Shown here: positions 8,115-9,290 of the stretch, one piece after another
How positions within the stretch are numbered: position 1 is the first letter of the stretch
Layout: each line of letters begins with the position of its first letter
Assembly: GCA_016840405.1 (NCBI GenBank)
Contig: JAEOSK010000054.1
Span: forward strand, 1 to 11,566
Source: Candidatus Hermodarchaeum yapensis
GTDB lineage: Archaea > Asgardarchaeota > Hermodarchaeia > Hermodarchaeales > Hermodarchaeaceae
DNA: 11,566 bases
Direction of reading: 5' to 3'
Position numbers and translations under genes: made by a program
Notes under the pieces: generated by a model
Database searches by the model: none
Told to the model about the DNA's origin: nothing
What the model saw: only the letters and a program-made list of their open reading frames with translations

Positions 8115-8708
8115 TTACTTGATTAGATCGAGTTTGACAAGTTTATACAAGAGCACATCTACATCGTCTTGAGGGAGTCCGACAATTTGGGCAATTTCTC
8201 GGGGTGAATGTTTGCCATCACATTGTTTGGCAACGTTGTATTCCTGTTCGCTTATTTGCCCTAGTTTCACCATTAATCGTGGAAGCCCTCGTTTGAGTTT
8301 CGGAGCGGGTACGTCGTTTTTACCTATGAATCCATTATTGAGCAATTGATTGAGTTCAGGTGTGAAGGAGAAAAAGACCAACTTTCCATCCCATGTTTTG
8401 AGGGTTTCTTCATATTGGTCTGAAAATCGGTCGATTACTTTATCAAGCGCTTGGAGGACTTGGAGTCGATTGTCGTCCCTATCAACTACTGCAGCTACGA
8501 CAATGTAATCGCCAGCAGCGTAGGTGATGTAAAACTCACCCATCTCCACGATTCGGGCTTCCCCTTTTCCTTTGGATACCATGCGGGCGAATTCCCGGAT
8601 GGCAGAAAAGAAGCCTGCAACCAACGTGGAGTCGAGTTCTAGCTCTCCGAATTTTTGGTCTAGAAGACAGACCCCGCTTGGGTGCATAAGATAGACCACA
8701 TGTAGCAT
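8115..8708 (-). CDS. Longin-like domain protein with C-terminal winged helix (NPRL2-like architecture)
   Basis: The N-terminal ~125 aa follow the pattern of Asgard longin domains (VYLMHPSGVCLL...DSTLVAGFFSAIREFA...RFSDQY...WDG...F). The C-terminus CDGKHSPREIAQIVGLPQDDVDVLLYKLVKLDLI is wHTH-like. Domain calls are from pattern recognition only. Confidence 0.75.
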   Translation of the reverse strand: MLHVVYLMHPSGVCLLDQKFGELELDSTLVAGFFSAIREFARMVSKGKGEARIVEMGEFYITYAAGDYIVVAAVVDRDDNRLQVLQALDKVIDRFSDQYEETLKTWDGKLVFFSFTPELNQLLNNGFIGKNDVPAPKLKRGLPRLMVKLGQISEQEYNVAKQCDGKHSPREIAQIVGLPQDDVDVLLYKLVKLDLIK

Positions 8709-8762
8709 ATTTGGCGCCCCGTGGGATGGAAACCTGTATCATTGGCTAGGGAAAGCGTAGTC

Positions 8763-8767
8763 AAAAA
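8763..8767 (-). terminator. Possible oligo-T terminator downstream of the tRNA
   Basis: A TTTTT run on the minus strand lies 16 nt after the encoded CCA. Confidence 0.3.
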
Positions 8768-8800
8768 GGTAACGATGGGATAGTGGTGCGGGGGGAGGGA

Positions 8801-8826
8801 ATTTCGGAGCTCGCAGAACATGCTCT
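8801..8826 (-). other. tRNA intron at position 59/60 (26 nt)
   Basis: Perfect BHB: central helix TTCG/CGAA, bulges AA^A and AT^T, intron stem GAGC/GCTC, outer helix formed by the T-stem. Confidence 0.9.
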
Positions 8827-8857
8827 TTCGAACCCTCGAACCGCTGCCGGACAGGAT

Positions 8858-8878
8858 GTCTCCTAAGCATGGTTAGAT
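8858..8878 (-). other. tRNA intron at canonical position 37/38 (21 nt; register ambiguous by up to 2 nt)
   Basis: Relaxed BHB with CTC/GAG helix, 3' bulge AC^A and intron hairpin CTAA/TTAG. Removing it restores a 7-nt anticodon loop. Confidence 0.8.
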
Positions 8879-8885
8879 CTTGAGT

Positions 8886-8915
8886 TACGCCGTCAACCTG
8901 CAAAAGCAAGTGACT
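8886..8915 (-). other. tRNA intron at position 30/31 (30 nt)
   Basis: Bulges GG^A and TA^A. Central helix CGCA/GGCG has 3 bp plus an A-G mismatch. Intron stem is GTCA-CTTGC/GCAGG-T-TGAC. Confidence 0.85.
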
Positions 8916-8940
8916 CCTGCGCCGTTGACCATGCTTGGCT

Positions 8941-8962
8941 GTGGGGTCTACTCAGGGTAGAT
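8941..8962 (-). other. tRNA intron at position 8/9 (22 nt)
   Basis: Full BHB: central helix GGGG/CCCC, bulges GT^A and AC^A, intron stem TCTAC/GTAGA, outer helix TGGC/GCCA. Confidence 0.85.
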
Positions 8963-9040
8963 ACCCCCGCCACCGGTTAAGTGGCATAGACCCTTCGGAA
9001 GGGTCCCCCGCAGAGGGTATGAGTGATAGGGCAATCAGGA

Positions 9041-9058
9041 ACTTAAAACTGCTTCGGG
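9041..9058 (-). promoter_or_regulatory. Putative BRE/TATA promoter of the tRNA gene
   Basis: The minus strand reads CCCGAAGCAG-TTTTAAGT, predicting a start near 9017. Confidence 0.45.
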
Positions 9059-9290
9059 GTTCTTCCGAGCCAAAGTCAACTTTCTCTACTAATCAAGTCC
9101 TGAATTAGCTTTTGAGAAAGTGGACCATGCTTGATTACCGTTGTCCGAAACTTTTCCATCTGAAGTAGGTCTTCAGTGGAAATCGGTTCCTGCATCATTG
9201 ACAAGCACTGCCCCAAAGGGCTGTAACCTTCTTGTCTCAAGACAGCCGTTTAATGTTTCCGCCCAACTAGCGGCGACAACATTGTGTTTG
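9051..9290. ncRNA. Candidate structured non-coding RNA of unknown family
   Basis: The region has no long ORF and contains at least four consecutive stem-loops, a long-range GTTGTC/GACAAC pairing and K-turn-like motifs on the minus strand. Confidence 0.35.

What the first reader, a model, noticed from the sequence alone, without database searches (positions are those of the whole stretch)
8784..8970. A single tRNA-Leu(CAA) gene split by four BHB introns
Seen in the sequence: removing four hairpin insertions (22+30+21+26 = 99 of 187 nt) gives an 88-nt class II tRNA-Leu with fully paired stems and encoded CCA. Each junction fits BHB geometry (4-bp helix, 3-nt bulges, cut after the second bulge base), perfectly for 8/9 and 59/60 and in relaxed form for 30/31 and 37/38. 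One exon is only 7 nt. Established knowledge: multi-intron tRNAs are known mainly from Thermoproteales, and the maximum I recall is three introns per gene. Inference: this lineage has extreme tRNA fragmentation, which standard scanners would probably miss or call a pseudogene, and it needs a broad-specificity splicing endonuclease.
Basis: partly seen in the sequence, partly recalled or inferred. Interest (0 to 1): 0.92.

Follow-up and report, generated by a model that had tools for sequence, protein, structure and literature searches.

The report
Four-intron leucine tRNA gene, Asgard archaeon
This is a real leucine tRNA gene of an Asgard archaeon cut into five pieces by four tRNA-type introns and conserved that way in 18 related species, but tRNA genes with four or five introns have already been published for other Asgard lineages.

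Summary
The gene lies on the minus strand of window 8784-8970. Removing four inserts (22, 30, 21 and 26 nt, at tRNA positions 8/9, 30/31, 37/38 and 59/60) gives an 88-nt tRNA-Leu(CAA) with encoded CCA, which ARAGORN accepts. ARAGORN and Rfam find nothing in the raw DNA.

An unbiased search over intron combinations returns the same four introns as the best cloverleaf. The same interrupted gene occurs in 18 other species of two genera. Exons are almost invariant, and introns vary with compensating changes. One species lacks intron 1 exactly at the predicted junction, and a paralogue, Leu(TAA), has the anticodon arm uninterrupted.

The genome encodes a catalytic and a non-catalytic EndA subunit (Aeropyrum-like alpha2beta2 type) and RtcB. 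No second Leu(CAA) gene was found.

The organism is an Asgard archaeon; related records are titled Hermodarchaeota. The "maximum three introns" premise is outdated. Four-intron tRNAs are listed for Freyarchaeia and Atabeyarchaeia (2024), and a 2026 preprint reports five.

Less expected features:
- A spare copy of the acceptor 5' strand sits in the leader and goes with the 8/9 intron. This scan had already noted it at two other loci of this genome.
- Introns 2 and 3 have overlapping splice motifs around a 7-nt exon.

Splicing itself was not observed.

The parts
8784..8970 (-). Whole interrupted tRNA-Leu(CAA) gene (187 nt pre-tRNA body, 88 nt after splicing, CCA encoded)
   Evidence: In-silico splicing plus ARAGORN. 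Unbiased solver. Orthologues in 18 species.
8963..8970 (-). Exon 1, GCGGGGGT (tRNA positions 1-8)
   Evidence: Invariant in alignment A1.
8941..8962 (-). Intron 1 (22 nt, position 8/9), strict hBHBh'. Central helix G3-G6:CCCC, inner hairpin TCTAC/GTAGA.
   Evidence: Compensatory changes in the inner helix (AU to CG, CG to GC). Absent exactly at this junction in G002.
8916..8940 (-). Exon 2 (positions 9-30: D arm, G26, first four bases of the anticodon stem)
8886..8915 (-). Intron 2 (30 nt, position 30/31), relaxed BHB. Central helix 3/4 with an invariant A.G, inner hairpin of 9 bp.
   Evidence: four pairs of the inner helix change on both sides. The paralogue Leu(TAA) has this junction uninterrupted.
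8879..8885 (-). Exon 3, the 7-nt micro-exon ACTCAAG (positions 31-37, carries anticodon CAA)
   Evidence: Invariant in 18 species.
8858..8878 (-). Intron 3 (21 nt, canonical position 37/38). Central helix is 3/4 here and 4/4 in 10 of 18 orthologues. Its middle pairs with the D-loop of exon 2.
8827..8857 (-). Exon 4 (positions 38-59: 3' anticodon stem, 14-nt variable arm, T stem 5' strand, TTCGAA)
8801..8826 (-). Intron 4 (26 nt, position 59/60), strict hBHBh'. Central helix TTCG:CGAA, with the T stem as outer helix.
   Evidence: The same position is interrupted in Atabeyarchaeia Leu(CAA).
8784..8800 (-). Exon 5 (position 60, T stem 3' strand, acceptor 3' strand, A73, CCA)
9005..9011 (-). Spare copy of the acceptor 5' strand (GCGGGGG) in the presumed leader, 41 nt upstream of the tRNA start
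   Evidence: Present in all 17 orthologues that have intron 1 and absent in the one that lacks it. Only the three genes with an 8/9 intron have such a copy in this genome. Predicted to pair with the 3' acceptor strand, P 0.92-0.98.
8989..9004 (-). Leader hairpin directly after the spare copy (ACCCTT-CCG-AAGGGT)
   Evidence: The stem is kept through different sequences in relatives, for example CCCGT..ACGGG and CCTGT..ATAGG.
8971..8988 (-). Leader linker. Its last bases (..GGTG) can extend the outer helix of the intron-1 BHB onto C12 and A13.
   Evidence: Read from the sequence. fold, alignment.
9042..9048 (-). TATA-like box (TTTTAAG on the minus strand), about 31 nt upstream of the spare copy
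   Evidence: TTTTAA/TTTAAA conserved at the same distance in orthologues. Promoter function is inferred, not shown.
8763..8767 (-). T5 run 17-21 nt after the CCA, a likely archaeal terminator
   Evidence: GTTACCTTTTTGAC kept in 16 of the 18 orthologues, with one base different in G004 and G008. Function is inferred.

Best explanation
This is the working, and apparently only, tRNA-Leu(CAA) gene of an Asgard archaeon. Related records are titled Hermodarchaeota.

It is probably transcribed from a TATA-like box as a precursor of about 230 nt. That precursor carries a leader, five exons (8, 25, 7, 31 and 17 nt) and four introns at positions 8/9, 30/31, 37/38 and 59/60. Each intron folds with its neighbouring exon bases into a bulge-helix-bulge motif. 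An alpha2beta2-type splicing endonuclease (one catalytic and one structural EndA paralogue) cuts the motif, and RtcB joins the exons. The product is an 88-nt class II tRNA with A73 and an encoded CCA.

Shown here: the gene anatomy, its conservation, and the presence of the enzymes.

Inferred:
(a) The leader's spare copy of GCGGGGG holds the 3' acceptor strand. That leaves the real 5' strand free to form the intron-1 motif.
(b) Intron 2 is removed before intron 3. Their motifs use the same exon-3 bases, and the 7-nt exon would otherwise be released.
(c) RNase P then trims the leader.
For: Anatomy:
- The spliced product is called tRNA-Leu(caa) and spans all 88 nt.
- The solver, ranked only by cloverleaf quality, returns the same four introns.

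Conservation:
- The gene is found in 13 further species of the same genus with all four introns. One more has three, and one is cut by a contig end. Four species of a sister genus also have it.
- An exact-pattern scan of 185,579 species' genomes finds 18 records, all Asgard-type MAGs.
- Exons are nearly invariant and introns vary. 93% of BHB cells pair, against 37-49% when partners are slid. Seven pairs change on both sides.

Natural junction controls:
- G002 reads GCGGGGGT|AGCC without intron 1.
- Leu(TAA) has the contiguous anticodon arm GCAGGACTTAAGATCCTGT and an intact T loop.

Enzymes:
- EndA alpha is 186 aa with Y/H/K. EndA beta is 198 aa with His replaced by Thr. RtcB is present.

Other support:
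- No other Leu(CAA) gene in this assembly, and no uninterrupted CAA anticodon arm in it or in the 12 congeners searched.
- The DNA is present in at least 10 metagenome runs from at least 9 studies. In one of them three overlapping contigs with 0-1 differences cover the whole stretch laid.
- Leader model: spare copy in 17/17 orthologues with intron 1 and 0/1 without. In this genome 3/3 genes with an 8/9 intron have it, against 0 of 42 others apart from one hit that is a neighbouring tRNA. Predicted probability of the intron-1 central helix is 0.05 or less without the leader in all 17. With the leader it is 0.8 or more in 11 of 17.
Against: - No spliced junction or circular intron was seen. The metatranscriptome contigs that touch the locus (from close relatives, 90-97% alike) carry unspliced sequence, and DNA carry-over cannot be excluded.
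- One RNA-library contig runs about 60 nt beyond the proposed start site. This does not fit a transcript that begins at the spare copy.
- Introns 2 and 3 have only 3 of 4 central pairs in this genome.
- The spliced product was scored with ARAGORN and a home-made cloverleaf score, not with a covariance model or tRNAscan-SE.
- The assembly is 86% complete, so a second Leu(CAA) gene cannot be excluded.
- With the leader, the intron-1 helix is still predicted weakly in 6 of 17 orthologues.
- Two of the three genes with a spare copy are paralogues, so there are only two independent cases.
Confidence: 0.92

Rival explanations
1. It is a decaying pseudogene: a former tRNA-Leu gene that has collected insertions and is no longer used.
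For: ARAGORN and Rfam do not call it. Two of the four splice motifs are imperfect. No spliced RNA was seen.
Against: All five exons are almost invariant in 18 species of two genera, while the inserts diverge and keep their helices by compensating changes. It is the only Leu(CAA) gene found. The promoter-like and terminator-like flanks are conserved.
Confidence: 0.02
2. The gene is real but has a different intron count or different boundaries. For example, three introns with one long insert spanning the anticodon region, or a fifth intron between the upstream GCGGGGG and the second copy.
For: The solver gives ARAGORN-positive three-intron products, such as a 'Ser(act)' of 89 nt, when ranked by fewest introns. 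The 7-nt direct repeat allows a formal 228-nt reading.
Against: The four-intron product has the best cloverleaf score and the right identity: A73, a 14-nt variable arm, and sequence close to Leu(TAA). G002 and Leu(TAA) show three of the four junctions uninterrupted. Checked by hand with the cut placed after the seventh base of the repeat, the 41-nt stretch between the two GCGGGGG copies forms no BHB: the central helix fails at the second pair (sequence).
Confidence: 0.04
3. It is an assembly or binning artefact: a chimeric contig or a collapsed repeat.
For: The source is a metagenome-assembled genome, 86% complete and 4.4% contaminated. The window is a whole short contig.
Against: The same architecture is assembled independently in 18 other species. 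The stretch is held at 0.54-0.93 of sampled words in 10 runs of 9 studies. In one run overlapping contigs with 0-1 differences cover the whole stretch laid, the gene included.
Confidence: 0.01

Closest known systems
[quoted passage not shown] 2024, PMC11291895; Freyr-/Jordi-/Atabeyarchaeaceae census, bioRxiv 10.64898/2026.10.13.758758)
   Same: Asgard host, several BHB introns per gene at non-canonical positions, and genes missed or under-called by standard finders. Four-intron genes are listed there (Arg TCT, Ile2 CAT and Leu GAG in Freyarchaeia; Trp CCA in Atabeyarchaeia-2, and a Lys TTT row with 4 called by tRNAscan-SE but 3 after curation). The preprint gives up to five. Atabeyarchaeia Leu(CAA) also has an intron at 59/60.
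   Different: This is another lineage: relatives are titled Hermodarchaeota, and 'Hermod' does not occur in the preprint's main text. Three of the four positions (8/9, 30/31, 37/38) are not interrupted in Atabeyarchaeia Leu(CAA), which instead has introns in the D loop and the variable arm. This genome's average load looks lower, roughly 1 to 1.3 per gene in my lower-bound census against the 2.2 reported for the focal families.
Multi-intron tRNA genes of Thermoproteales (Sugahara et al. 2008; reviewed in PMC4033280)
   Same: BHB introns at many positions including 30/31 and 59/60, an (alpha-beta)2 EndA with a specific loop, and relaxed motifs tolerated.
   Different: The maximum reported there is three introns. 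The phylum is different.
Aeropyrum pernix heterotetrameric EndA (PDB 3P1Z, 3AJV)
   Same: The alpha subunit aligns over its full length (161 bits) with Tyr, His and Lys kept. The loop motif VEKPRG corresponds to IRKPKS, so the lysine is kept. I recall that lysine as Lys44 of the Crenarchaea-specific loop. A second paralogue lacks the His.
   Different: The beta-like subunit is closer in sequence to Methanocaldococcus and Methanopyrus EndA than to A. pernix beta. Assembly and specificity are untested.
Split tRNAs of Nanoarchaeum equitans, where leader sequences build the splice motif
   Same: Sequence outside the mature tRNA is used to make a splice site usable.
   Different: In Nanoarchaeum two transcripts anneal through complementary leaders that form the BHB itself (PMC4033280). 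Here a cis leader copy of the acceptor strand is proposed to occupy the 3' strand, and it is not part of the motif.

Membership tests
Archaeal BHB (EndA-spliced) tRNA intron | [quoted passage not shown] | tested here: met
   Introns 1 and 4 have 4/4 central pairs. Intron 2 has 3/4, with an invariant A.G. Intron 3 has 3/4 here and 4/4 in 10 of 18 orthologues. The two 3/4 cases fit the published 'relaxed' class only.
Archaeal BHB (EndA-spliced) tRNA intron | At least one flanking helix (h or h') of 2 bp or more | tested here: met
   Outer/inner helix lengths are 2/5 for I1, 2/4 (9 with a bulge) for I2, 6/1 for I3 after I2 removal, and 5/4 for I4.
Archaeal BHB (EndA-spliced) tRNA intron | Removal restores a complete cloverleaf | tested here: met
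   ARAGORN calls tRNA-Leu(caa) over [1,88]. Stem pairs are 7/3/5/5, equal to the other Leu genes of the genome.
Archaeal BHB (EndA-spliced) tRNA intron | Spliced RNA or circular intron observed | tested here: inconclusive
   Four runs were laid. RNA-library contigs show only unspliced sequence and no joints. Such libraries rarely capture mature tRNA.
Archaeal BHB (EndA-spliced) tRNA intron | Splicing endonuclease and RtcB ligase encoded | tested here: met
   PF01974 and PF02778 each hit twice. PF01139 hits at 510 bits.
Class II tRNA-Leu | Leu anticodon, long variable arm, discriminator A73 | tested here: met
   Anticodon CAA, 14-nt variable arm with a 3-bp stem, A73, encoded CCA. The mature sequence is 92.5% identical to Leu(TAA) over positions 9-48.
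Heavily interrupted Asgard tRNA genes | Host is an Asgard archaeon | tested here: met
   Orthologous loci lie in records titled Candidatus Hermodarchaeota or Promethearchaeota. Three carry other labels: Odin-, Thor- and Woesearchaeota. The two complete Atabeyarchaeia genomes appear as same-phylum relatives.
Heavily interrupted Asgard tRNA genes | Under-called by tRNAscan-SE | not testable with these tools
   tRNAscan-SE is not available here. ARAGORN and the Rfam tRNA model miss the gene.
(alpha-beta)2 heterotetrameric EndA | One catalytic subunit with Tyr/His/Lys and one structural subunit without the full triad | tested here: met
   The C14 protein (186 aa) keeps Y, H and K in alignment with 3P1Z_B. 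The C36 protein (198 aa) has Thr where M. jannaschii EndA has His125.
(alpha-beta)2 heterotetrameric EndA | Specific loop with a lysine that widens substrate range | tested here: met
   IRKPKS aligns with A. pernix VEKPRG. That this lysine is the functional Lys44 is from my memory of Hirata et al. 2011 and was not checked in a paper here.
(alpha-beta)2 heterotetrameric EndA | The subunits assemble as a heterotetramer and cut relaxed motifs | not tested
   No complex prediction or assay was run.

The most novel reading that the evidence does not exclude
Splicing this gene may depend on RNA folding aids outside the classic motif.

(1) A leader-encoded decoy copy of the acceptor 5' strand pairs with the tRNA's 3' strand. 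Only then can the real 5' strand build the splice motif of the intron at 8/9.

(2) The motifs of introns 2 and 3 overlap on the 7-nt exon, so the cell must cut and rejoin intron 2 before intron 3. In this genus a helix between the D loop and intron 3 holds the pieces in place.

This would be a programmed, ordered folding pathway for an archaeal pre-tRNA, and a rule for how introns can persist inside the acceptor region.
Probability: 0.4. Interest if true: 0.75.

Novelty: new member of a known kind. Interest (0 to 1): 0.55.

Why it matters
The result adds a further Asgard lineage to those where tRNA genes carry four introns. It also shows that the only gene found for reading UUG with a CAA anticodon needs eight precise cuts and four ligations.

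For annotation, it is a concrete case that the two finders tried here miss, so Leu(CAA) would probably be scored as absent in these genomes.

The leader spare strand and the overlapping motifs give testable ideas about how an endonuclease that reads only local shape can handle a crowded precursor. They also bear on why introns can settle at an awkward site such as 8/9. [quoted passage not shown]

Tried and rejected
- ARAGORN (with and without intron mode) and Rfam at gathering threshold on the raw window found nothing. My first splice, by plain index on the plus strand and then on the minus strand, gave no tRNA.
- Metatranscriptomes: four RNA runs hold small shares of the stretch. The three laid gave contigs 88-97% alike over 8843-8990 and 8926-9075, with introns still in place. 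There were no joints, and no cover over 8725-8842. This neither shows nor excludes transcription or splicing, and DNA carry-over is possible.
- A fifth intron between the two GCGGGGG copies was rejected. With the cut placed after the seventh base of the repeat the central helix fails (hand check on the sequence).
- Ranking solver output by fewest introns gave false products such as Ser(act). It was replaced by a cloverleaf score with class II restricted to Leu and Ser anticodons.
- The exact boundaries of the two D-arm inserts of the 199-nt Pro(CGG) gene could not be fixed. Several placements score equally.
- The anchor census with introns allowed in the T loop was far too noisy (606 candidates) until filtered for G53/C61, TTCRA, U8 and a GC-rich acceptor. 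It misses genes with introns in the acceptor or T stems, so all counts are lower bounds.
- The supplementary tables of the 2026 preprint are not held, so I could not check whether this family was in its panel.

Full report
WHAT IS THERE. Window 8784-8970 was read on the minus strand. It begins GCGGGGGT and ends CCCCCGCACCA. Removing 22, 30, 21 and 26 nt after mature bases 8, 33, 40 and 71 (Sprinzl positions 8/9, 30/31, 37/38 and 59/60) leaves 88 nt. ARAGORN calls this product tRNA-Leu(caa) over its full length, with a 3-bp variable-arm stem, A73 and CCA. The raw DNA gives no ARAGORN or Rfam hit. The exons are 8, 25, 7, 31 and 17 nt, and the 7-nt exon ACTCAAG carries the anticodon.

IS THE PARSE UNIQUE? 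I scored every possible excision for bulge-helix-bulge geometry. The criteria were four exon bases before a 2-base overhang pairing with the four intron bases before its last two, plus outer and inner helices. I then ran a beam search over successive removals. Central/outer/inner scores are 4/2/5, 3/2/4, 3/6/1 and 4/5/4. Ranking by fewest introns gives poorer products with wrong identity.

Nature supplies three controls:
- Species G002 has the gene without intron 1 and reads GCGGGGGT|AGCC.
- The paralogue tRNA-Leu(TAA) on contig C36 has only the 8/9 intron. Its contiguous anticodon arm equals the spliced CAA arm except for the anticodon base, and its T loop is intact.
- Other Leu genes of the genome have the same mature layout.

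CONSERVATION. A search of relatives finds the locus in all 14 other species of the genus and in 4 species of a sister genus. Seventeen full-length orthologues align with it. An exact-pattern scan of one genome per species across GTDB finds 18 records, all Asgard-type MAGs, mostly titled Candidatus Hermodarchaeota or Promethearchaeota.

Exon columns are almost all invariant, while intron loops differ freely. On the BHB structure of introns 1, 2 and 4, 93% of cells pair, against 37-49% when partners are slid. Seven pairs change on both sides, all in inner helices. The A.G mismatch in intron 2's central helix is invariant. Intron 3's fourth central pair is A-U in 10 of 18 species and A.G in this genome.

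The stretch is held by at least 10 metagenome runs of at least 9 studies. In one of them overlapping contigs with 0-1 differences cover the whole stretch laid. It is therefore not an assembly artefact.

MACHINERY. Two EndA paralogues are encoded. The 186-aa protein aligns end to end with the catalytic subunit of the Aeropyrum pernix heterotetramer (3P1Z_B, 161 bits). It keeps Tyr, His and Lys, and the lysine of the loop VEKPRG/IRKPKS. That this is the specificity lysine is from my memory. The 198-aa protein has Thr in place of the catalytic His. This is the alpha2beta2 pattern, which is known for broad substrate range (PMC4033280). RtcB is present.

IS IT THE ONLY LEU(CAA)? None of the following finds a second gene: ARAGORN with introns, the Rfam tRNA model, BLAST of the mature sequence and my census. 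A search for an uninterrupted CAA anticodon arm in this genome and 12 congeners also found none; all 1-mismatch hits are Leu(TAA). The assembly is 86% complete, so this is 'not found', not 'absent'.

HOW FRAGMENTED IS THE GENOME? All tRNA genes encode CCA, except one without it on contig C2. I therefore anchored on acceptor pairing plus T arm plus CCA and found 45 genes. Thirteen are compact. About 19 have one intron, 4 have two and 3 have three. Two have four: this gene and a 199-nt Pro(CGG). Four are unresolved. This is a lower bound and an approximate parse. It supports 'intron-rich', roughly at the level of Thermoproteales and below the 2.2 per gene reported for Freyr-, Jordi- and Atabeyarchaeaceae.

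EARLIER NOTES. Earlier notes of this scan on other pieces of the same genome report BHB introns in Leu(TAA), His, SRP RNA, 16S rRNA and three protein genes. I re-derived the Leu(TAA) and His anatomy. I did not check the rest.

THE LEADER. Upstream of the gene lie a TATA-like box, then a second GCGGGGG 41 nt before the real one, a hairpin, and a linker. All 17 orthologues with intron 1 have this layout, and the hairpin stem is kept through different sequences. G002, the one gene without intron 1, has neither the spare copy nor the hairpin. Its TATA box sits at the usual distance from the tRNA itself.

In this genome exactly the three genes with an 8/9 intron (His, Leu TAA, Leu CAA) have an upstream 7-mer that can pair fully with their own 3' acceptor strand. 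None of the other 42 does, apart from one hit that is a neighbouring tRNA. The idea that this copy makes the site spliceable came from the earlier notes.

Here I tested it by folding. Without the leader, the normal acceptor stem forms (P 0.81-1.00) and the intron-1 central helix does not (P 0.05 or less) in all 17 orthologues. With the leader, the spare copy takes the 3' strand (P 0.92-0.98). The intron-1 helix then reaches P 0.8 or more in 11 of 17, 0.28-0.49 in 4, and 0.06 or less in 2. This is in-silico support only.

ORDER OF SPLICING. The outer helix of intron 2 (G48, G49 with C87, T88 of the precursor) and the central helix of intron 3 (bases 87-90) use the same exon-3 bases. Intron 3 gains a proper outer helix, the anticodon stem, only after intron 2 is gone: outer length is 1 before and 6 after. 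I infer that intron 2 is cut and ligated first. This would also keep the 7-nt exon from being set free.

In this genus the middle of intron 3 pairs with the D loop of exon 2 over 7-9 bp, with two compensating changes (CCTGG:CCAGG to CATGG:CCATG, and U-A to C-G). In the sister genus intron 3 has its own hairpin instead.

WHAT IS KNOWN. Valentin-Alvarado et al. 2024 found 92-95% of tRNA genes interrupted in three complete Atabeyarchaeia and Freyarchaeia genomes. Their Supplementary Data 4 has columns for four introns, with four-intron rows for Arg TCT, Ile2 CAT, Leu GAG, Trp CCA and Lys TTT (the Lys row has 4 called by tRNAscan-SE but 3 after curation). A preprint of October 2026 reports up to five per gene.

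I fetched the two Atabeyarchaeia Leu(CAA) genes. They have three introns, in the D loop, the variable arm and at 59/60, so only the 59/60 site is shared. I found no paper on tRNA introns in Hermodarchaeia.

VERDICT. As a kind of thing it is already known, so it is a new member in a further Asgard lineage. The leader spare strand and the overlapping motifs are the parts a specialist would find fresh. They rest on comparative and folding evidence only.

Noticed in passing
G000:C3:71703-71901 (minus strand): A 199-nt gene that parses as tRNA-Pro(CGG) with about 121 nt of inserts. There are probably four introns: two in the D arm with uncertain boundaries, one at 37/38 and one at 59/60. If so, this genome has a second four-intron tRNA gene.
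   Followed up: partly
G000:C36:7588-7771 (plus strand): A 184-nt tRNA with anticodon CAT and three introns (32, 49 and 26 nt, at about 31/32, 37/38 and 59/60) in the solver's best parse.
   Followed up: partly
window 8916-8940 with 8858-8878 (minus strand): The D loop of exon 2 is complementary to the middle of intron 3 over 7-9 bp in all 14 species of the genus, with two compensating changes. The sister genus lacks this and has an intron-internal hairpin instead.
   Followed up: yes
G000:C36:10691-11287 (minus strand): The non-catalytic EndA paralogue sits inside a cluster of tRNA genes on contig C36: Leu TAA, Met/Ile2 CAT, Thr GGT, Arg CCT, Tyr GTA and one more at 13526-13633.
   Followed up: no
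G000:C74:10768-11895 and G000:C61:3858-4367: RtcB matches fall on two contigs that cover profile positions 1-365 and 263-426. This could be two copies, a gene cut by contig ends, or an interrupted gene.
   Followed up: no
G000:C2:18-92: This tRNA-Glu(TTC) is the only intact tRNA gene in the Rfam list without an encoded CCA, and it sits at a contig start. It may be contamination.
   Followed up: no
G000:C36:2728-2796 (minus strand): A second Leu(TAA)-like copy with the same anticodon arm. The Rfam match starts only at tRNA position 9 and scores just under threshold (28.9 bits). I did not check whether it has a usable exon 1.
   Followed up: no
window 8716-8783: About 70 nt downstream of the tRNA are conserved across the genus beyond the T run (for example CCACGGGGC). 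This may be the promoter or leader of the next minus-strand ORF (8115-8708), or another small RNA.
   Followed up: no
L002 (G002:C12), around 1750-1800 of the locus: In the one species without intron 1, the sequence just before the tRNA (..CTCCCGT) and the TATA spacing resemble what precedes the spare copy in other species. The spare copy, hairpin, linker and intron 1 appear to have been lost together.
   Followed up: partly
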